From: an uncultured archaeon
GTDB lineage: Archaea > Thermoplasmatota > Penumbrarchaeia > JASLWR01
NCBI GenBank assembly: GCA_964342815.1
Contig: CAYFHS010000007.1
Location: 32,001-96,000, forward strand
Reading direction: 5' to 3'
Length of the DNA: 64,000 nt
Under the pieces are notes generated by a model. The model saw only the letters and a program-made list of their open reading frames with translations. It made no database searches and was not told the origin of the DNA. The translations under genes were made by a program, and so were the position numbers. Position 1 is the first letter of the stretch. Every line of letters begins with the position of its first letter. Below, one piece after another: positions 48,015-59,760 of this stretch.

Positions 48015-50846
48015 CTAATTCGTCTTCCCTTCAAGTGCCTTCAGTATCTTTTCCGGCGTAATAGGCAGATCTTTGATCCATACCCCTGTTGCATCTTTGA
48101 TTGCATGGGCTACCGCTCCCAGTATGGGAACCGTGGCCCCTTCTCCTACCTCTTTCGCGCCGTATGGCCCCTCTTTCTCGTAAGAATCCACTATCCCGCT
48201 GAATATCTCAGGCGCGTCCTTGATGGTCATCAAAAGATACTCGTGTAGATTCGGATTAACAAGTTCACCATTGTCATTATAGACCATCTCCTCCATGAGA
48301 GCCTCGCCGGTGGTCATCACCACCGCTCCTTCAACCTGGCCGTGTACGGACATGGGATTTACCGGCGTGCCGCAATCGTGGAAATCCCAGAATTTCTTTA
48401 GGTCCACCTTGCCCGTGGAAAGATCGACCTTCAGCTCGCATATGGCAGTGCTGAATGAATACGCGGGAGATGTTCCAACCGTTGCTCCCTTGTAATCGCC
48501 GCCCAGACCCTCGGGGGGCTTGTACCACCCGGTCCCCATCAATGACGAATTGTCGTTGAAATATTTTCGCGCGGCCTCCGCCCATTCCATGGATTTGTTT
48601 TCGTCCTTTTCAGAAAAAATAAACCCTTCCGAGGCTTTCAAATCTTCACTGGGGCAGTCCAGGATCCGTGCCGCCACCGGGAATAATTTCGCTAGAACAT
48701 CTTCCGCCGCCCGCTTGACCGCGTTGCCACCCATAAGAGTTATTCGCGACGAGTAAGCACCGAGATCGATGGGGCTGATATCCGAATCCTCCGAGCGTAT
48801 CCGGACCCTGTCGGCCGGCAGCCCCAGAGCTTCCGCCGCTATCATGGGAAGTATAGTATCGGAACCCTGACCGATATCTGCGGCGCCAATGAAAAGAACT
48901 GCCTGGGTGCCGTCCTCGGAGATCTTGATAATGGCGTTTGCATGCGGAAAGATGGATTTCTTCTGGAAAGGCTCCCTTGGTTTTTGGGAATGCTGCTGCA
49001 CCTGTCCTCGATATATTGCATAACCCGCCCCTGAAACAAAACCACCGCTGGATAATCCGATGCCATGGCCTGCTGGTAGTTTATCATATTTTTCCGAGAA
49101 ACCCGATTCCGCCACCGCTTGGATTAGAGTGTCCTTGTATCGGCAGCTCTTGATGTCCAGGTCGTTGCATGTGTGATAATCCGCTTCCATTGAATTTATC
49201 CTTCGGACCTCCACCGGGTCCAGGGACAGCTCGTCACATATCATGTTCAACAGGCACTCGAAGGCAAAGCGGGGCTGCGGCGAGCCGTGTCCGCGAAATG
49301 CACCGCAGGCCGGTTTGTTCGTCATGACCCTTCGGCCGGTATATTTGTAGTTTGGAATCTTGTAGAGTGTGGGTATCATGCTCCCGGCATAGTAGACCGT
49401 CACGATCCCAAACGACGTATATGCACCCCCATCAAGAAAAATTGTACTTTCGAAGGCAGTGATCTCCCCGTTTCGCTTGACGCCCATTTTCATTTTGATG
49501 TACTGTTTATGCCTGCCCCGGTGATGCAGGAACATCTCTTTTCTTGTATAGACCATCTTCACAGGGCAGCCGGTCTCTTTAGACAGCACACAGCTGATGA
49601 GGTCCAGAGGTGTTGTCTCGGCCTTTCCCCCAAAGCCCCCTCCCACAGCTGGCCGTATAACCTTGATCTTCCCAAGCGGTATATCGAAAACGTTGGCCAG
49701 CATATAATGAACGTAGTGGGGCACCTGAGTTGCTGAATAGAGCACTAAAAGTCCGTCCTGCCAGTCGCTAATGGACGCATGCGGCTCAATGGGCGCCTGC
49801 TGGGTGAAGTTCCCCGTGAAACTTTCTTCCTTGATGTAGTCGGCTTCGGAAAATCCCTGCTCAACATTCCCGAAATGGTGGTCCACTCTCGTGTTTATGT
49901 TGTTGGGATATCGCTCATGCAGCAGAGGGGCCCCGTTTTCCATGGCCTCGTAAACGTCGAATACAGCTGGTAGTTCCTCGTAATCCACTTCAATGAGTTC
50001 AAGCGCCCTCTCGGCAGTCTCCTCGTCCACTGCTGCCACGGCGGCGACCTCATCTCCAATGTATCGCACGATATCCTTTGCAAGCACATACTCGTCATAT
50101 CGCGGAGGACTTACGCCGTACTGTCTGTCAGGAACGTCCATACCGGTGATCACAGCCTTTACCCCTGGCAGTGCTTCGGCCTTTGAGGTGTCTATTCTCA
50201 TTATCCGGCCGTGTGGGATGGGACTGTGAAGGATTTTTCCGTGTAACATTTTAGCTAATACGATATCACCTGTGTACTTCGCCCTGCCCGTAACTTTATC
50301 TCTTGCATCGTAACGTGGTAGACTCTTTCCCACTACCTTGTAATTGTCTAGGTCGTATTCTTTCGTCTCCGGTTCGTCCACATCTTCGTATTTCTTCCAG
50401 TTCTTAACCGCATCCAGTATTTTAACGTAACCGGTGCAGCGGCAGAGGTTGCCGCCAAGGGCTTCTTTGATTTTATCATCAGTAGGTTCGGTGTATTTAT
50501 CTGTAAGGGCTTTAGCACTCATAACCATACCTGGAGTGCAGTATCCGCATTGTATGGCGCCGCTGTGAACGAAAGATTTTTGCATGGGCGAGAGCTTCCC
50601 TTTCTCTTCAAGCCCTTCTATGGTGGTGATTCGTTTTCCTGCCATATTTGCGGCGAGCAGGAGACAGCTCGACAATTGCTCCCCGTCCACCAGCACTGTA
50701 CAGGCACCGCATACCCCGAGCCCGCATCCCTTCTTGGTACCGGTCAGGTCAAGTTTGTCCCTGATAACGTCCAATAGAGTGGTGTTTGGTTTTACGGCGA
50801 TTGTGCGCTCGTCCCCGTTCACGTTGAGGGTGATAAGCTCATACAA
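48015..50846 (-). CDS. Xanthine-dehydrogenase-family molybdoenzyme, fused 2x[2Fe-2S] + Mo subunit, 4-hydroxybenzoyl-CoA reductase alpha-like
   Basis: GTKKGCGLGVCGACTV, QCGYCTPG, GGNLCRCTGY; Mo domain GGGFGGK, AFRGHG, DIGQGS, YSSRIT, GAKEVGE. Confidence 0.9.
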   Translation of the reverse strand: MYELITLNVNGDERTIAVKPNTTLLDVIRDKLDLTGTKKGCGLGVCGACTVLVDGEQLSSCLLLAANMAGKRITTIEGLEEKGKLSPMQKSFVHSGAIQCGYCTPGMVMSAKALTDKYTEPTDDKIKEALGGNLCRCTGYVKILDAVKNWKKYEDVDEPETKEYDLDNYKVVGKSLPRYDARDKVTGRAKYTGDIVLAKMLHGKILHSPIPHGRIMRIDTSKAEALPGVKAVITGMDVPDRQYGVSPPRYDEYVLAKDIVRYIGDEVAAVAAVDEETAERALELIEVDYEELPAVFDVYEAMENGAPLLHERYPNNINTRVDHHFGNVEQGFSEADYIKEESFTGNFTQQAPIEPHASISDWQDGLLVLYSATQVPHYVHYMLANVFDIPLGKIKVIRPAVGGGFGGKAETTPLDLISCVLSKETGCPVKMVYTRKEMFLHHRGRHKQYIKMKMGVKRNGEITAFESTIFLDGGAYTSFGIVTVYYAGSMIPTLYKIPNYKYTGRRVMTNKPACGAFRGHGSPQPRFAFECLLNMICDELSLDPVEVRRINSMEADYHTCNDLDIKSCRYKDTLIQAVAESGFSEKYDKLPAGHGIGLSSGGFVSGAGYAIYRGQVQQHSQKPREPFQKKSIFPHANAIIKISEDGTQAVLFIGAADIGQGSDTILPMIAAEALGLPADRVRIRSEDSDISPIDLGAYSSRITLMGGNAVKRAAEDVLAKLFPVAARILDCPSEDLKASEGFIFSEKDENKSMEWAEAARKYFNDNSSLMGTGWYKPPEGLGGDYKGATVGTSPAYSFSTAICELKVDLSTGKVDLKKFWDFHDCGTPVNPMSVHGQVEGAVVMTTGEALMEEMVYNDNGELVNPNLHEYLLMTIKDAPEIFSGIVDSYEKEGPYGAKEVGEGATVPILGAVAHAIKDATGVWIKDLPITPEKILKALEGKTN

Positions 50847-58974: not shown

Positions 58975-59760
58975 GTGTTAAATATGTCCGATCATAATTA
59001 CTACGCTGGTATTGACGTCGGTACATCTTACGTCAAGATGGTCTTATTGGACAGAGACAATCGAATTATCGCTTCTCATATCGAGCGCTCCGGGGCGGTT
59101 CTTCAAAGATCCATCAAATCGGCTTATGACGGGGTTCTTTCCGTTTCAGGACTTCTTGAGGACCAAATTACTCATATCACGGCCACTGGATTCGGCCGAA
59201 AGAATGTGAATTTCGCAGACAGCATAAAGACGGAGATAAGCTGCCACGCCAGGGGTGCTTATTACCGTTTCGGTGAAGCCATCACGGTCATTGATATCGG
59301 TGGGCAGGATACAAAAATAATCAAAGTCGCCAAGAACGGCAAATTGCTTAATTTCAAGATGAACAGAAAATGCGCAGCCGGTACGGGTTCGTTTCTCGAA
59401 GAGATCGCTCTGAAAATGAATATCCCAATGGAGGAAATGAACGACCTGGCTGCCAGCTCTGATAATACAACGGCACTTGGGAGCTTCTGCACTGTCTTTG
59501 CCTCTTCTGAGATGCTCACGCGCATTCAGAATGGAGAACGGGTGGAGGATATGGCAAAAAGCGCCTATGAATCTGTGGTAAGACGTGTGATTGAGATGGA
59601 CGTTTTTCATGGAAAGTTGGTTATAAGCGGCGGCGTGGTCAAACACAATCGGGTTATCGTCGATATACTGGAAAGACAGCTCGGGAAGGAAATCTCAATC
59701 GCTCCCAGTCCGCAGCTTACAGGGGCATTCGGAGCAGCACTTTTTGCAGGTGAAAACTGA
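58975..59760 (+). CDS. ASKHA-type [4Fe-4S] activase (HgdC/BcrD-like)
   Basis: GIDVGTSYVK, TATGFGR, TEISCHARG, DIGGQDTK, MNRKCAAGTGSFLE, SFCTVFASSE, SGGV. Confidence 0.93.
   Translation: MLNMSDHNYYAGIDVGTSYVKMVLLDRDNRIIASHIERSGAVLQRSIKSAYDGVLSVSGLLEDQITHITATGFGRKNVNFADSIKTEISCHARGAYYRFGEAITVIDIGGQDTKIIKVAKNGKLLNFKMNRKCAAGTGSFLEEIALKMNIPMEEMNDLAASSDNTTALGSFCTVFASSEMLTRIQNGERVEDMAKSAYESVVRRVIEMDVFHGKLVISGGVVKHNRVIVDILERQLGKEISIAPSPQLTGAFGAALFAGEN

What the first reader, a model, noticed from the sequence alone, without database searches (positions are those of the whole stretch)
48015..59760. Putative archaeal anaerobic aryl/2-hydroxyacyl-CoA pathway island
Co-located: PanE-type reductase, AMP-forming CoA ligase, ADP-forming acyl-CoA synthetase and an HgdA/BcrB-like subunit in one overlapping operon, a divergent ASKHA activase, the Hcr-like Mo enzyme and a regulator. 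PanE-family enzymes can make (R)-2-hydroxyacids, the substrates of radical dehydratases, and ADP-forming synthetases conserve ATP. Two readings: a Stickland-like reductive branch for aromatic or branched amino acids, or hydroxybenzoate to benzoyl-CoA ring reduction. Only one dehydratase/reductase subunit and one activase domain are present; the partner subunit (HgdB/BcrC-like) is missing here.
Basis: partly seen in the sequence, partly recalled or inferred. Interest (0 to 1): 0.7.

Follow-up and report, generated by a model that had tools for sequence, protein, structure and literature searches.

The report
Single-subunit radical dehydratase operon, aromatic breakdown
This archaeal operon encodes an uncharacterised one-subunit relative of the oxygen-sensitive iron-sulfur enzymes that dehydrate 2-hydroxyacyl-CoAs, and it probably feeds phenylalanine- or tyrosine-derived acids into oxygen-free breakdown of the benzene ring.

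Summary
Five form a conserved module: a PanE-family reductase, an AMP-forming CoA ligase, an ADP-forming acyl-CoA synthetase, one HadB-like HGD-D protein and an HgdC-type activase. The module recurs in Thermoplasmatota, Asgard archaea, Desulfobacterales, Anaerolineae and Aminicenantes.

The "missing" partner subunit is a family trait. Only 4 of 80 loci hold another HGD-D gene. Genomes G387 and G078 hold only BzdN, BzdO and this protein.

The module travels with the benzoyl-CoA pathway. In a 401-genome phylum sample, 18 of 20 carriers have BzdO against 2 of 381 non-carriers, and 14 of 20 have Oah against 2 of 381. The window's own genome encodes BzdNOPQ and Dch-Had-Oah on other contigs.

The Hcr-like Mo enzyme is not co-conserved: 2 of 80 loci, and 5 of 20 carriers against 116 of 381 non-carriers.

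Most likely the route runs arylpyruvate, aryllactate, aryllactyl-CoA, cinnamoyl-type CoA, then beta-oxidation to benzoyl-CoA. Substrate and direction are inferred. Earlier notes of this scan read the same family similarly on other DNA; they are not independent support.

The parts
57105..58379 (-). Solitary HGD-D family protein, alpha/HadB-like and probably homomeric: the catalytic Fe-S component. The likely true start is the Met at residue 10, giving 415 aa.
   Evidence: - Pfam HGD-D E = 4e-64.
- NCBIfam: HadB 220 bits, BcrB 146, BzdO 72, DCCP 62, HadC 16, all below their cut-offs.
- PDB: HadB 3o3m_A E = 2.6e-50.
- Relatives are 67-91% identical across archaea and bacteria.
- Six Cys are at least 99% conserved in 76 sequences. 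Three of them align with BzdO Cys95/128/380.
58975..59760 (+). HgdC/HadI-type ATP-dependent activase (archerase), a single ASKHA domain, transcribed divergently.
   Evidence: - TIGR00241 228 bits against a cut-off of 125.4.
- Present within 10 kb of the HGD-D gene in 67 of 80 loci, and in 39 of the 40 loci with enough flank.
- Cys133 and Cys172 are invariant in 57 sequences.
55019..57103 (-). ADP-forming acyl-CoA synthetase with fused alpha and beta parts. Either it activates the hydroxy acid at the cost of one ATP, or it conserves ATP from a product CoA ester.
   Evidence: - Pfam CoA_binding_2, Succ_CoA_lig and ATP-grasp_5.
- Best NCBIfam models are 4-hydroxybutyrate-CoA ligase (508 bits) and acetate-CoA ligase (482 bits), both far below their cut-offs.
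- Directly downstream of HGD-D in most lineages; present in 46 of 80 loci.
53481..55022 (-). AMP-forming acyl/aryl-CoA ligase.
   Evidence: - Pfam AMP-binding E = 4.9e-81.
- The best solved relatives are a feruloyl-CoA synthetase (8wev, 255 bits), FadD5 and FadD13.
- Present at 50% identity or more in 44 of 80 loci.
52501..53484 (-). PanE/ApbA-family NAD(P)H-dependent 2-oxoacid reductase, the proposed 2-oxoacid to (R)-2-hydroxyacid step.
   Evidence: - TIGR00745 175 bits against a cut-off of 141.35; all equivalog models are below their cut-offs.
- Present in 54 of 80 loci, and in 35 of the 40 loci with enough flank.
- A second, 23%-identical PanE-like gene lies at C3:95497-96324.
58380..58974 (.). 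Divergent promoter region between the operon and the activase, enlarged by a dispersed repeat element.
   Evidence: - 595 bp here, against gaps of about 145 to 220 bp in L016, L022 and L026 (one search match ends, frames).
- blastn finds 22 further partial matches on 19 contigs, several of them at contig ends.
48015..50846 (-). Fused 2Fe-2S and molybdopterin subunit of a xanthine-dehydrogenase-family enzyme (4-HBCR-alpha-like). It is a lineage-specific neighbour, not part of the conserved module.
   Evidence: - TIGR03194 897.9 bits, below the 994.55 cut-off.
- Next to the module only in L016 (81% identical), with a distant copy (38%) in L083.
- The family occurs in 121 of 401 genomes of the phylum sample, none over the cut-off.
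50847..51725 (-). FAD subunit of the Mo enzyme, without the HcrB-type extra segment.
   Evidence: - Best model XdhB, 210.8 bits.
- The HcrB model TIGR03195 scores only 131.8 bits against a 404.55 cut-off, in two stretches.
- 292 aa against a 321-position model.
52027..52422 (+). Small protein, possibly HTH_20/ArsR-like. Multi-copy in this genome and not conserved with the module.
   Evidence: - No Pfam or NCBIfam family.
- Atlas feature likeness 0.97 to small archaeal HTH_20 clusters.
- Five further copies in the genome, 29-79% identical.
- L016 has a methyltransferase gene in this position.

Best explanation
SHOWN
- The locus carries a conserved five-gene module built around a solitary HadB-type Fe-S protein and its own HgdC-type ATP-dependent activase.
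- The module is an accessory of the anaerobic benzoyl-CoA pathway.

INFERRED ROUTE
1. The PanE-family enzyme reduces an aromatic 2-oxo acid from transamination of phenylalanine or tyrosine (phenylpyruvate or 4-hydroxyphenylpyruvate) to the (R)-2-hydroxy acid.
2. A CoA ligase makes the 2-hydroxyacyl-CoA. This could be the AMP-forming ligase, or the ADP-forming synthetase run in the activating direction.
3. The activase injects one low-potential electron at the cost of ATP.
4. The HGD-D protein, acting without a beta subunit and probably as a homodimer, removes water through a ketyl radical to give cinnamoyl-CoA or 4-coumaroyl-CoA.
5. Beta-oxidation enzymes encoded elsewhere in the genome yield benzoyl-CoA plus acetyl-CoA. 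Candidates are the SDR plus SCPx-type thiolase on C2 and the HADH/ECH fusion plus thiolase on C9.
6. BzdNOPQ (C31) dearomatises benzoyl-CoA, and Dch-Had-Oah (C2) open the ring.

OPEN
- Where both ligases are present, the ADP-forming synthetase may instead recover ATP from a product CoA ester.
- The adjacent Mo enzyme is a lineage-specific addition of uncertain role.
For: CO-CONSERVATION
- Of 80 loci, the activase is within 10 kb in 67, PanE in 54, the ADP-forming synthetase in 46 and the AMP ligase in 44.
- Of the 40 loci with at least 5 kb upstream and 6 kb downstream, 14 hold all four partners, 10 hold AMP ligase plus PanE plus activase, and 8 hold the ADP-forming synthetase plus PanE plus activase.

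SOLITARY SUBUNIT
- 4 of 80 loci hold any other HGD-D-like region. None of these is a dedicated neighbour: L062 has a second alpha-like paralogue with its own activase-like genes, L066 has a BzdN/BzdO-like pair, and L088 and L089 have BzdN (L089 also part of BzdO).
- G387 (one contig) and G078 (94% complete) each have exactly 3 HGD-D matches (BzdN, BzdO, this protein) and 3 BcrAD-type ATPases.

DEHYDRATASE-LIKE ACTIVE SITE
- HadB is the best model and the best solved relative.
- Cys101/141/369 align with BzdO Cys95/128/380, the cluster ligands named in PMC11971306. That paper states HadB has the same coordination.
- Glu72 aligns with BzdO Glu65. BzdO His131 is Val here, as in HadB.

LINK TO THE BENZOYL-COA PATHWAY
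- Own genome: BzdN 467.6 bits (cut-off 453.8), BzdO 543.4 (448.6), BzdQ 425.6 (380.2). Oah 566.3 (464.45), Had 463.8 (338.65), Dch-like 179.3 (below 292.5).
- 401-genome phylum sample: BzdO in 18 of 20 carriers against 2 of 381 non-carriers; Oah in 14 of 20 against 2 of 381. In family f21 the same 4 of 53 genomes carry all three.
- G387 and G324 hold one island of about 35 to 45 kb with the module, AOR, BzdNOPQ, SDR plus SCPx thiolase, Oah, Had-like, Dch-like, HADH/ECH and thiolase.
- Of a hand-picked 50 of the 80 loci's genomes, 31 have Oah at E <= 1e-60. That is 30 of 41 bacterial genomes, 0 of 8 Asgard-type genomes, and G449, the genome that holds L016.

ARYL-SPECIFIC NEIGHBOURS IN OTHER LINEAGES
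- IorA 765.8 bits (cut-off 650.9), in 11 of 80 loci.
- PaaK-like ligase 551.8 bits (below 646.3), in 14 loci.
- AOR in 11 loci; a PadH-like protein (283.8 bits, below 475) in 4 loci.
- Had 461-499 bits and Oah 534-535 bits, both above their cut-offs.
- Glutaryl-CoA dehydrogenase 751.7 bits (cut-off 470), in 6 loci.

BETA-OXIDATION GENES IN THE OWN GENOME
- Thiolase and HADH/ECH at C9:70303-73241, 55-70% and 58% identical to the module-linked ones.
- SDR and SCPx thiolase at C2:143759-145663, 75% and 74% identical to those of the G387 island.

LITERATURE
- Passages of PMC13416013 independently propose phenylpyruvate to cinnamoyl-CoA to benzoyl-CoA via a phenyllactyl-CoA dehydratase in a sulfate reducer, as a hypothesis.
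Against: - No enzyme activity, substrate or oligomeric state was measured; none can be with these tools.
- The thiolase and HADH/ECH genes could serve only the lower benzoyl-CoA pathway (3-hydroxypimelyl-CoA to glutaryl-CoA). They do not prove side-chain beta-oxidation.
- The near 1:1 co-occurrence with BzdO also fits a role inside the pathway, or one sharing its lower part.
- An AMP-forming ligase in place of the clostridial CoA transferase makes the route costly for a fermenter.
- The presence of two ligases is not explained.
- Three further invariant Cys (52, 213, 312) have no counterpart in HadB. They could mean different cluster chemistry.
- In the window's genome the module, Bzd, Dch-Had-Oah and the beta-oxidation genes lie on four different contigs (C7, C31, C2, C9). 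The genome is a metagenome bin, 88.9% complete and 3.2% contaminated.
- Carriers without BzdO (G028, G068) and without Oah (6 of 20) exist.
- 0 of 8 Asgard-type genomes had a TIGR03200 match at E <= 1e-60.
- The genomes compared are related, so the counts overstate independence.
- No RNA data were available.
Confidence: 0.5

Rival explanations
1. The module is a 2-hydroxyglutarate route. 2-Oxoglutarate from glutamate is reduced to (R)-2-hydroxyglutarate, activated to its CoA ester and dehydrated to glutaconyl-CoA. It then joins the lower benzoyl-CoA pathway (glutaconyl-CoA to crotonyl-CoA). The co-occurrence with Bzd/Oah would reflect shared downstream enzymes.
For: - Non-decarboxylating glutaryl-CoA dehydrogenase, whose product is glutaconyl-CoA by established knowledge, lies near the module in 6 of 80 loci (751.7 bits against a cut-off of 470).
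- PanE-type reduction followed by radical dehydration is the logic of glutamate fermentation (established knowledge of HgdAB).
- The co-occurrence counts fit this reading as well.
Against: - The neighbours that are substrate-specific point to aryl acids: IorAB, a PaaK-like ligase, AOR and a PadH-like protein.
- A glutamate route would be useful to any peptide fermenter, yet the protein was found in only 2 of the 381 sampled genomes without BzdO.
- No HgdA reference sequence was available for a direct comparison.
Confidence: 0.12
2. Stickland-like reductive branch. The enoyl-CoA is reduced to the saturated acyl-CoA, and the ADP-forming synthetase releases arylpropionate or isocaproate with ATP gain.
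For: - The gene set PanE, ligase, dehydratase, activase and ADP-forming synthetase matches the order of steps in clostridial Fld/Had pathways, apart from the CoA transferase.
- The ADP-forming synthetase sits directly after the dehydratase gene.
Against: - No enoyl-CoA reductase or ETF gene cluster appears among the 60 gene clusters found in at least 3 loci. The only acyl-CoA dehydrogenase cluster (6 of 80 loci) is glutaryl-CoA dehydrogenase.
- One ATP to AMP spent and one ATP regained gives a net loss (inference).
- The module tracks the benzoyl-CoA pathway, an oxidative route.
Confidence: 0.08
3. The HGD-D protein is not a dehydratase. It is an ATP-driven reductase or dehydroxylase acting on an aryl- or alicyclic CoA ester, a homodimeric relative of DCCP with a second Fe-S site. 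It would use electrons stoichiometrically.
For: - Six invariant Cys instead of three.
- Cys312 aligns with a Cys of DCCP (6eno), and the Cys141-X170-Cys312 spacing equals the CX166-170C step of the DCCP motif.
- The residue aligned with BzdO Trp46 is an invariant Gly56 here, and Phe in HadB. By PMC11971306, Trp46 fills the site of the lost sub-cluster in BzdO.
- DCCP is a homodimer with its own homodimeric reductase.
- Near 1:1 co-occurrence with BzdO.
Against: - The DCCP model scores 61.8 bits against a cut-off of 350. The 7-Cys motif is not met: one motif Cys is absent and the spacings differ.
- HadB is much the closest relative (220 bits).
- The His131 proton donor of BzdO is absent.
- A PanE-type 2-oxoacid reductase and CoA ligases are exactly what a 2-hydroxyacyl-CoA dehydratase needs upstream.
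Confidence: 0.1
4. The adjacent Mo enzyme is a true 4-hydroxybenzoyl-CoA reductase that completes a tyrosine or 4-hydroxybenzoate branch. This could hold together with the best explanation.
For: - TIGR03194 is by far its best model: 897.9 bits against 567.9 for XdhA.
- It is co-directional and close to the module in the family f1 genomes: L016, which is in G170, and G077.
- An Mo enzyme lies 13 kb from the module and 8 kb from Oah in G028.
- 4-Coumaroyl-CoA beta-oxidation would give 4-hydroxybenzoyl-CoA (inference).
Against: - It is below the curated cut-off of 994.55.
- The FAD subunit scores 131.8 bits against the 404.55 cut-off of the HcrB model, in two stretches, and is about 30 residues shorter than the model.
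- The family is in 121 of 401 sampled genomes, including every sampled member of f14 (36 of 36), f16 (9 of 9) and f26 (9 of 9). No carrier of the module was found in these families. No BzdO was found in them, and Oah only in 2 of the 36 f14 genomes (G257, G281).
- It is in 5 of 20 carriers against 116 of 381 non-carriers.
- It is absent from 78 of 80 module loci.
- It stands where other Thermoplasmatota loci have a PadH-like gene plus AOR, so an aldehyde-oxidising role is equally possible.
Confidence: 0.15

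Closest known systems
(R)-2-hydroxyisocaproyl-CoA dehydratase HadBC with activator HadI (PDB 3o3m/3o3n); more broadly the 2-hydroxyacyl-CoA dehydratases (Hgd, Fld, Lcd)
   Same: - HGD-D fold family, with HadB as the best model and the best solved relative (220 bits; E = 2.6e-50).
- The three cluster Cys and the Glu of the PEN motif are conserved.
- A separate single-domain HgdC-type activase with two invariant Cys.
- An upstream 2-oxoacid reductase.
   Different: - No beta (HadC-type) subunit anywhere in the loci, or in two small genomes.
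- Three extra invariant Cys.
- Substrate activation by CoA ligases instead of a CoA transferase.
- The reductase belongs to the PanE family rather than the D-2-hydroxyacid dehydrogenase family.
- The context is the oxidative benzoyl-CoA pathway rather than a reductive fermentation branch.
- 220 bits is far below the 750-bit equivalog cut-off.
Class I benzoyl-CoA reductase, Bzd type (BzdNOPQ; BzdNO structures 8s02; MbdO 9g87)
   Same: - Same superfamily. BzdO/MbdO-type catalytic subunits are the second-best relatives.
- Same three Cys ligands and the Glu65 equivalent.
- ATP-driven electron injection by ASKHA ATPases.
- The genes co-occur, and lie in one island in G387 and G324.
   Different: - One catalytic subunit instead of BzdN plus BzdO.
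- One activase gene instead of two different ATPase subunits.
- The His131 equivalent is Val.
- TIGR03191 scores 72 bits against a cut-off of 448.6.
- The genome has a separate, complete BzdNOPQ.
Double-cubane cluster protein DCCP with its reductase DCCP-R (PDB 6eno, 7yyl)
   Same: - Presumed homomeric HGD-D protein with its own homodimer-type activase.
- More than three conserved Cys.
- Cys312 and Cys369 align with DCCP Cys.
- The spacing between Cys141 and Cys312 matches one step of the DCCP motif.
   Different: - NF040772 scores 61.8 bits against a cut-off of 350, and only the C-terminal half aligns.
- The 7-Cys motif is not met.
- DCCP of C. hydrogenoformans has channels too narrow for CoA esters (PMC7317905, passages seen). 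This protein sits among CoA-ester enzymes.
Phenylalanine fermentation of Clostridium sporogenes (FldH, FldA, FldBC, FldI), and the beta-oxidative cinnamoyl-CoA to benzoyl-CoA route. Both are recalled; PMC13416013 (passages seen) cites Dickert et al. 2002 for the former.
   Same: The proposed chemistry: phenylpyruvate to phenyllactate to phenyllactyl-CoA to cinnamoyl-CoA, followed by hydration, oxidation and thiolysis to benzoyl-CoA.
   Different: - As far as my searches show, the two halves have not been shown to be joined in one organism. PMC13416013 only hypothesises the join.
- No FldA-type CoA transferase and no FldC-type subunit are present.
- No Fld sequence was available for comparison.
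4-Hydroxybenzoyl-CoA reductase HcrABC (for the neighbouring Mo enzyme)
   Same: - Xanthine-dehydrogenase-family enzyme with MoCo, 2Fe-2S and FAD parts.
- The HcrA model is its best hit at 897.9 bits.
   Different: - Below the cut-offs for all three subunit models.
- The Fe-S subunit is fused to the Mo subunit.
- The FAD subunit lacks about 30 residues of the HcrB model. That this segment holds HcrB's extra [4Fe-4S] cluster is recalled, not tested.
- The family is common in genomes without the benzoyl-CoA pathway.

Membership tests
2-hydroxyacyl-CoA dehydratase (HAD: HadBC/HgdAB/FldBC/LcdAB) | Catalytic subunit of the HGD-D fold, closest to the alpha (substrate-binding) subunits | tested here: met
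   - PF06050 E = 4e-64.
- HadB model 220 bits against HadC 16 bits.
- 3o3m_A E = 2.6e-50, or 3.4e-64 with the family profile.
- The score is below the HadB equivalog cut-off of 750.
2-hydroxyacyl-CoA dehydratase (HAD) | Three Cys ligands of the catalytic [4Fe-4S] cluster with an open fourth iron site | tested here: met
   - Cys101/141/369 are 100% conserved in 76 sequences.
- They align with BzdO Cys95/128/380.
- PMC11971306 names these as the ligands and states HadB has the same coordination.
- The cluster itself was not observed.
2-hydroxyacyl-CoA dehydratase (HAD) | Heterodimer of homologous alpha and beta subunits encoded side by side | tested here: not met
   - No adjacent second HGD-D gene in 76 of 80 loci. 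The other 4 hold a paralogue or Bzd-type genes, none a dedicated partner.
- G387 and G078 have only BzdN, BzdO and this protein.
- The oligomeric state itself cannot be tested here.
2-hydroxyacyl-CoA dehydratase (HAD) | Separate HgdC/HadI-type ATP-dependent activator, one ASKHA domain, with two Cys that bridge a [4Fe-4S] cluster in the homodimer | tested here: met
   - TIGR00241 228 bits against a cut-off of 125.4.
- Cys133 and Cys172 are invariant in 57 sequences.
- That these two are the cluster-bridging Cys of HgdC is recalled, not tested.
2-hydroxyacyl-CoA dehydratase (HAD) | Substrate supplied by a CoA transferase (GctAB, HadA, FldA) | tested here: not met
   No CoA-transferase gene appears in the window operon or among the annotated recurrent neighbours. 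Two CoA ligases stand in its place.
2-hydroxyacyl-CoA dehydratase (HAD) | Catalyses syn-elimination of water from an (R)-2-hydroxyacyl-CoA | not testable with these tools
   Needs an anoxic enzyme assay.
Class I benzoyl-CoA reductase | Four subunits: two different HGD-D subunits and two different ASKHA ATPases | tested here: not met
   - One HGD-D gene and one activase gene at this locus.
- The four-gene Bzd set lies on contig C31.
Class I benzoyl-CoA reductase | Catalytic-subunit residues Glu65 and His131 next to the cluster-bound water (BzdO numbering, PMC11971306) | tested here: not met
   The Glu is present (Glu72), but His131 aligns with Val144. Numbering was checked.
Double-cubane cluster protein (DCCP) | 7-Cys motif CX19CX18-19CX29CX166-170CX32-34CX32C | tested here: not met
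   - The conserved Cys are at 52, 101, 141, 213, 312 and 369, with spacings X48, X39, X71, X98 and X56. The motif is taken from PMC7317905.
- Only the X170 distance between Cys141 and Cys312, and the alignment of Cys312 and Cys369 with DCCP Cys, agree.
- NF040772 scores 61.8 bits against a cut-off of 350.
4-hydroxybenzoyl-CoA reductase (HcrABC) | All three subunits reach the curated equivalog scores, including the HcrB-specific segment | tested here: not met
   - Alpha 897.9 bits, below 994.55.
- Gamma part 171.2 bits, below 257.8.
- Beta 131.8 bits, below 404.55, matched in two stretches.
Ketopantoate reductase / PanE-ApbA family | ApbA and ApbA_C domains, subfamily-level model | tested here: met
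   - PF02558 and PF08546.
- TIGR00745 175 bits against a cut-off of 141.35.
- No equivalog-level 2-dehydropantoate reductase model reaches its cut-off, so the substrate is open.
ADP-forming acyl-CoA synthetase (ACD/NDP-forming) | CoA-binding, succinyl-CoA-ligase-like and ATP-grasp_5 domains in one chain | tested here: met
   All three domains are found. The equivalog models (4-hydroxybutyrate, 3-hydroxypropionate and acetate ligases) are all far below their cut-offs.

The most novel reading that the evidence does not exclude
The solitary HGD-D protein is a homodimeric radical enzyme standing between the homodimeric double-cubane proteins and the heterodimeric dehydratases and benzoyl-CoA reductases. 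Its three extra invariant Cys (52, 213, 312) and the invariant Gly at the BzdO-Trp46 position would form a second Fe-S site that takes over the electron-storage role of the missing beta subunit. With the PanE-type reductase and the ligases, it would open a so far undemonstrated anaerobic route: phenylalanine or tyrosine to aryllactyl-CoA, to cinnamoyl-type CoA, to benzoyl-CoA. That route would bypass the phenylacetate/phenylglyoxylate pathway and would be widespread in marine sediment archaea (Thermoplasmatota, Asgard) and in sulfate reducers.
Probability: 0.3. Interest if true: 0.8.

Novelty: new variant of a known kind. Interest (0 to 1): 0.62.

Why it matters
All characterised 2-hydroxyacyl-CoA dehydratases and class I benzoyl-CoA reductases use two different catalytic subunits. 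A widespread one-subunit form, 67-91% identical between archaea and bacteria in the listed matches, would change the picture of how this radical enzyme family works and evolved.

Its tight association with the benzoyl-CoA pathway points to an undescribed way for anaerobes to feed aromatic amino acids, or related aryl-C3 acids, into ring reduction. That bears on protein and lignin-monomer turnover in anoxic marine sediments. It also bears on how benzoyl-CoA-reductase genes in uncultured archaea are read: they are usually taken as signs of hydrocarbon or pollutant degradation (passages of PMC9239135).

The hypothesis can be tested directly in cultivable carriers and with recombinant proteins.

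Tried and rejected
EXPRESSION. The look-up of sequencing runs listed no RNA holder, so co-expression could not be tested.

LITERATURE. None of these searches returned a description of the module:
- '2-hydroxyacyl-CoA dehydratase' + 'Asgard': 0 papers.
- '2-hydroxyglutaryl-CoA dehydratase' + 'Lokiarchae': 1 paper, listing only.
- Homodimer / single-subunit terms: 16 papers, listings only.
- 'phenyllactyl-CoA dehydratase' + 'benzoyl-CoA' + 'thiolase': 1 paper, PMC13416013, passages read.
- The five-term phenylalanine / cinnamoyl-CoA search: the same paper.
- The ketopantoate reductase / archaea search: 43 papers, 15 listed, listings only.
- 'benzoyl-CoA reductase' + 'Thermoplasmat' + 'aromatic': 20 papers. 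Passages of PMC9239135 mention only bcrABCD.
- 'daltonii' + '2-hydroxyglutaryl-CoA dehydratase': the same paper again.
- Subscription journals and supplementary files were not searched. Figure S23 and the tables of PMC13416013, and Table S6 of PMC9239135, could bear on the claim and were not seen.

REJECTED IDEAS
- The Mo enzyme as a core member: rejected.
- The HGD-D protein pairing with a distant beta subunit: rejected.
- My first mapping of Trp51 to BzdO Trp46 was wrong. On recounting the alignment against the numbering, Trp46 aligns with Gly56 and BzdO Trp41 aligns with Trp51.

NOT DONE
- No phylogeny against Hgd, Fld and Lcd, because no reference sequences for them were available from the tools.
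- No structure prediction. The tools return no coordinates, so Cys-Cys distances and a dimer could not be examined.
- No background rate of Oah in bacterial relatives that lack the module.

ROWS DROPPED
- One search counts only partners within 10 kb and above identity thresholds: activase 40%, ADP-forming synthetase and AMP ligase 50%, PanE 30%.
- One search covers 50 hand-picked genomes of the 80. It leaves out L017, L019, L021, L022, L024-L028, L031, L032, L035, L036, L039, L040, L044, L048-L051, L055, L063, L064, L067, L073, L075-L077, L081 and L084.
- Alignment A1 uses 13 of the 80 loci.

Full report
WHAT IS THERE

The window is G000:C7:32001-96000 of a 4.35-Mb, 116-contig archaeal metagenome bin, 88.9% complete and 3.2% contaminated. 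No McrA was found in it. The bin belongs to the same GTDB phylum as G387. By matching coordinates, G387 is the record CP070836.1, 'Thermoplasmatales archaeon' (L076). The phylum is therefore Thermoplasmatota.

On the minus strand, from upstream to downstream:

| Coordinates | Length | Identity |
|---|---|---|
| 57105-58379 | 424 aa | HGD-D protein |
| 55019-57103 | 694 aa | ADP-forming acyl-CoA synthetase |
| 53481-55022 | 513 aa | AMP-forming ligase |
| 52501-53484 | 327 aa | PanE-family reductase |

These four genes abut or overlap by 4 nt. A 261-aa HgdC-type activase (58975-59760) is transcribed divergently across a 595-bp gap. Further downstream on the minus strand lie the FAD subunit (50847-51725) and a fused 2Fe-2S/MoCo subunit (48015-50846) of a xanthine-dehydrogenase-family enzyme. 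Between these and PanE, on the plus strand, is a 131-aa protein with no family match.

A CONSERVED FIVE-GENE MODULE

The HGD-D protein has thousands of relatives. One search scored 8000 candidates, 7918 of them at E <= 0.001. The best 120 are 72-100% identical and almost all 414-420 aa long. They come from Desulfobacterales, Aminicenantes, Thermoplasmatota and others.

I fetched 80 loci from named genomes, searched them with the window's proteins and counted partners within 10 kb:

| Partner | Loci of 80 |
|---|---|
| Activase | 67 |
| PanE | 54 |
| ADP-forming synthetase | 46 |
| AMP ligase | 44 |
| Mo enzyme | 2 |

Of the 40 loci with enough flanking DNA:
- 14 have all four partners.
- 10 have AMP ligase, PanE and activase.
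- 8 have the ADP-forming synthetase, PanE and activase.

So at least one of the two ligases is present in 33 of 40, and the two are partly interchangeable.

Gene order differs by lineage:
- Thermoplasmatota, as here: activase divergent, then HGD-D, synthetase, ligase, PanE.
- Desulfobacterales: PanE, activase, HGD-D, synthetase, ligase.
- Anaerolineae: HGD-D, synthetase, ligase, PanE, activase.
- Asgard: ligase, thiolase, HGD-D, MaoC, then further genes, PanE, activase.

THE 'MISSING' SUBUNIT IS A FAMILY TRAIT

Searching the 80 loci with BzdN, BzdO and the HGD-D protein found another HGD-D-like region in only 4. L062 has a second alpha-like paralogue, with its own activase-like genes beside it. 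L066 has a BzdN/BzdO-like pair. The Asgard loci L088 and L089 have BzdN, and L089 also part of BzdO. None is a dedicated neighbour.

In the single-contig genome G387 and in G078 (94% complete), PF06050 finds exactly three genes: BzdN, BzdO and this protein. PF01869 finds exactly three ATPases: BzdP, BzdQ and the module's activase.

The protein is alpha-like: the HadB model scores 220 bits and the HadC model 16 bits. The simplest reading is a homomeric enzyme. This is an inference; the oligomeric state was not observable.

SEQUENCE FEATURES

In 76 family sequences, six Cys are at least 99% conserved: positions 52, 101, 141, 213, 312 and 369.
- Cys101, Cys141 and Cys369 align with BzdO Cys95, Cys128 and Cys380. 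PMC11971306 names these as the ligands of the catalytic [4Fe-4S]-OH2 cluster and says HadB has the same coordination (sections read as passages).
- Glu72 aligns with BzdO Glu65.
- BzdO His131 aligns with Val144, as in HadB. This speaks for a dehydratase-like rather than a Birch-reductase-like site.

The other three Cys have no counterpart in HadB.
- Cys312 aligns with a Cys of DCCP (6eno).
- The Cys141-X170-Cys312 distance equals one step of the DCCP 7-Cys motif given in PMC7317905.
- The motif as a whole is not met, and the DCCP model scores 61.8 bits against a cut-off of 350.
- BzdO Trp46 fills the place of the lost second sub-cluster according to PMC11971306. It aligns with an invariant Gly56 here, and with Phe in HadB.

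What these three Cys do is unexplained.

The activase has two invariant Cys, at 133 and 172.

LINK TO THE BENZOYL-COA PATHWAY

*Own genome.*
- Contig C31 encodes BzdN (467.6 bits, cut-off 453.8), BzdO (543.4, cut-off 448.6), a second ATPase and BzdQ (425.6, cut-off 380.2). These are followed by an 853-aa NAD(P)-binding Fe-S flavoprotein.
- Contig C2 encodes Oah (566.3 bits, cut-off 464.45), Had (463.8, cut-off 338.65) and a Dch-like hydratase (179.3, below 292.5) side by side.
- C2:143759-145663 encodes an SDR and an SCPx-type thiolase.
- C9:70303-73241 encodes a thiolase and a HADH/ECH fusion, 55-70% and 58% identical to those next to the module in other lineages.

*Neighbours in the 80 loci*. 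Cluster counts are from my own clustering; family names come from one or a few representatives of each cluster.

| Neighbour | Loci of 80 | Score against cut-off |
|---|---|---|
| Thiolase | 28 | |
| Enoyl-CoA hydratases | 20 | the long ones are Oah, 534-535 bits, above the cut-off |
| HADH/ECH fusion | 16 | |
| Zn-dehydrogenase | 14 | Had, 461-499 bits (above) in Desulfobacterales and Anaerolineae; 237 bits (below) in Asgard |
| PaaK-like ligase | 14 | 551.8, below 646.3 |
| ACT-pair protein | 13 | |
| IorA | 11 | 765.8, above 650.9 |
| AOR | 11 | |
| TRAP transporter | 10 | |
| IorB | 9 | |
| Glutaryl-CoA dehydrogenase | 6 | 751.7, above 470 |
| PadH-like flavoprotein | 4 | 283.8, below 475 |

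*Phylum sample.* In 401 genomes drawn evenly from the phylum:
- 20 carry the HGD-D orthologue at E <= 1e-100.
- BzdO at E <= 1e-60 is in 18 of these 20 and in 2 of the other 381.
- Oah is in 14 of the 20 and in 2 of the other 381.
- The carriers spread over 10 GTDB families, 9 of which also have BzdO.
- Within family f21, the same 4 of 53 genomes carry all three.
- The exceptions are G028 and G068 (no BzdO) and G010, G022, G026, G050, G068 and G129 (no Oah). Several of these are 73-83% complete.
- Related genomes are not independent, so I give no P value.

*Islands.* In G387 and G324 the genes form one island of about 35 to 45 kb. In order: an acyl-CoA carboxylase trio, a radical-SAM gene, the activase, the module, a PadH-like gene, ferredoxin plus AOR, the Fe-S flavoprotein, BzdQPON, SDR plus SCPx thiolase, Oah, Had-like, Dch-like, HADH/ECH and thiolase.

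*Other lineages.* Of 50 hand-picked genomes holding the other loci, 31 have Oah at E <= 1e-60, 29 of them over the cut-off. That is 30 of 41 bacterial genomes, 0 of 8 Asgard-type genomes, and G449. G449 is the genome that holds L016, and it shows the same Oah match as G170. The Asgard loci do carry Dch-, Had- and BadI-like genes and BzdN. I measured no background rate for bacteria.

THE MO ENZYME

Its best model is 4-hydroxybenzoyl-CoA reductase alpha, but at 897.9 bits it is below the 994.55 cut-off. The FAD subunit fits XdhB best. It matches the HcrB model only at 131.8 bits against 404.55, in two stretches.

In the phylum sample, 121 of 401 genomes have a match at E <= 1e-150, none over the cut-off. 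These include every sampled member of families f14 (36 of 36), f16 (9 of 9) and f26 (9 of 9). No carrier of the module was found in these three families. No BzdO was found in them, and Oah only in 2 of the 36 f14 genomes (G257, G281).

It is present in 5 of the 20 carriers (G000, G077, G170, G186, G028) against 116 of 381 non-carriers. Adjacency to the module is seen in family f1:
- In the window.
- In G077, on the same contig about 7 kb away.
- In L016, which is in G170. There it is co-directional behind PanE and a methyltransferase gene.

It also lies 13 kb from the module in G028, and a distant copy sits in the Aminicenantes locus L083.

It stands where G387 and G324 have the PadH-like gene and AOR. 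So it may replace an aldehyde-oxidising unit. That is a guess.

I conclude that it is a lineage-specific neighbour of unknown substrate, not a diagnostic Hcr.

OTHER FEATURES

- The 131-aa protein resembles small archaeal HTH_20/ArsR-like proteins only by language-model features (0.97). It has five further copies in the genome, 29-79% identical. It is absent from the related loci.
- The 595-bp region between operon and activase is about 145 to 220 bp in L016, L022 and L026. Here it contains a repeat with 22 further partial matches on 19 contigs, several at contig ends.

MECHANISM

Shown:
- The module exists.
- Its catalytic protein is solitary.
- Its catalytic residues are HadB-like.
- It is tied to the benzoyl-CoA pathway.

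Inferred: substrate and direction.
- A PanE-type NAD(P)H enzyme favours reduction of a 2-oxo acid, by established thermodynamics of 2-oxo/2-hydroxy acid couples.
- The neighbours that are substrate-specific act on arylpyruvates, arylacetates and their aldehydes.
- The product of dehydrating phenyllactyl-CoA is cinnamoyl-CoA. Beta-oxidation of cinnamoyl-CoA yields benzoyl-CoA, the substrate of the co-occurring reductase.
- G387, G324 and the window's own genome each carry two beta-oxidation sets. That would fit two needs: the side chain and 3-hydroxypimelyl-CoA.

I put 0.5 on this reading. The rivals are a 2-hydroxyglutarate route that joins at glutaconyl-CoA, a Stickland-like reductive branch, and a reductase rather than a dehydratase. 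They are listed with their evidence in the rival explanations. The roles of the two ligases are not resolved.

LITERATURE AND EARLIER NOTES

None of my eight searches found a description of this module.
- PMC13416013 (passages read) hypothesises the same chemistry for a benzene-degrading sulfate reducer. It mentions a 'singular gene' 30% identical to FldB whose product was not detected.
- PMC7317905 (one section and passages read) describes sequence clusters of the family but no solitary alpha-type group.
- PMC9239135 (passages read) reports bcrABCD in Thermoplasmatota genomes only.

Earlier notes of this scan describe the same one-subunit family in a Geotalea daltonii operon, in a Kapabacteria genome and in an Aminicenantes genome, with similar readings. 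I saw them after reaching my own reading. They are unchecked notes, not independent evidence.

LIMITS

- No expression data were available.
- There is no biochemical evidence.
- No reference sequences of Hgd, Fld or Lcd enzymes were available for a tree.
- No structural coordinates were available.
- The genome is a fragmented bin, so linking genes across contigs rests on the binning.

Noticed in passing
window 58380-58974: The divergent promoter region between the operon and the activase is 595 bp, against about 145 to 220 bp in relatives. It holds a dispersed repeat: 22 further partial blastn matches on 19 contigs, several at contig ends, plus a 44-bp match inside the window at about 46925-46968. 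The repeat may affect expression of both transcription units.
   Followed up: partly
window 57105-58379 (protein positions 52, 213, 312, 56): Three Cys beyond the canonical three cluster ligands are at least 99% conserved in 76 family members. The position of BzdO Trp46 / HadB Phe is an invariant Gly. This could mean a second Fe-S site or an enlarged substrate pocket.
   Followed up: partly
G077:C80:20234-21493 (same genus as the window's genome): The 90%-identical orthologue of the HGD-D gene is reported with one in-frame TAA. It could be a pseudogene, a sequencing error or two frames. I did not examine it.
   Followed up: no
window 52027-52422; G000 C6:43703-44092, C65:1427-1801, C23:49567-49956, C24:11896-12258, C5:74457-74756: The 131-aa putative HTH protein belongs to a small multi-copy family in this genome, with copies 79, 78, 54, 48 and 29% identical. 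It has no Pfam or NCBIfam match.
   Followed up: partly
G000 C9:68577-73241 (L015, L097): The only 16S rRNA gene found (C9:68577-70044) is followed within about 260 bp by the thiolase and HADH/ECH genes. No 23S gene lies in that gap.
   Followed up: no
window 48015-51725 and 121 of 401 genomes of the phylum sample: A fused Fe-S/MoCo enzyme scoring 516-898 bits on the 4-hydroxybenzoyl-CoA reductase alpha model, never over the cut-off, is present in every sampled member of three families (f14, f16, f26). No carrier of the module and no BzdO were found in these; Oah was found only in 2 f14 genomes. Automatic 'Hcr' labels on such genes are probably wrong. The substrate is unknown.
   Followed up: partly
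L076 3388-7002 and 8119-9045; G324:C1:1210800-1216935: In two Thermoplasmatota islands, an acyl-CoA carboxylase trio (biotin carboxylase, BCCP, carboxyltransferase) and a radical-SAM gene lie just upstream of the activase. Their role, if any, in the pathway is unknown.
   Followed up: partly
G000 C18:2831-5589 (L001, L005, L010); C9, C19, C22: The genome also encodes a 758-aa frame combining BcrAD-type ATPase and HGD-D parts, with a further ATPase frame beside it. Three very long frames of 1430-1462 aa each carry two ATPase domains. These are further uncharacterised members of the same enzyme superfamily.
   Followed up: no
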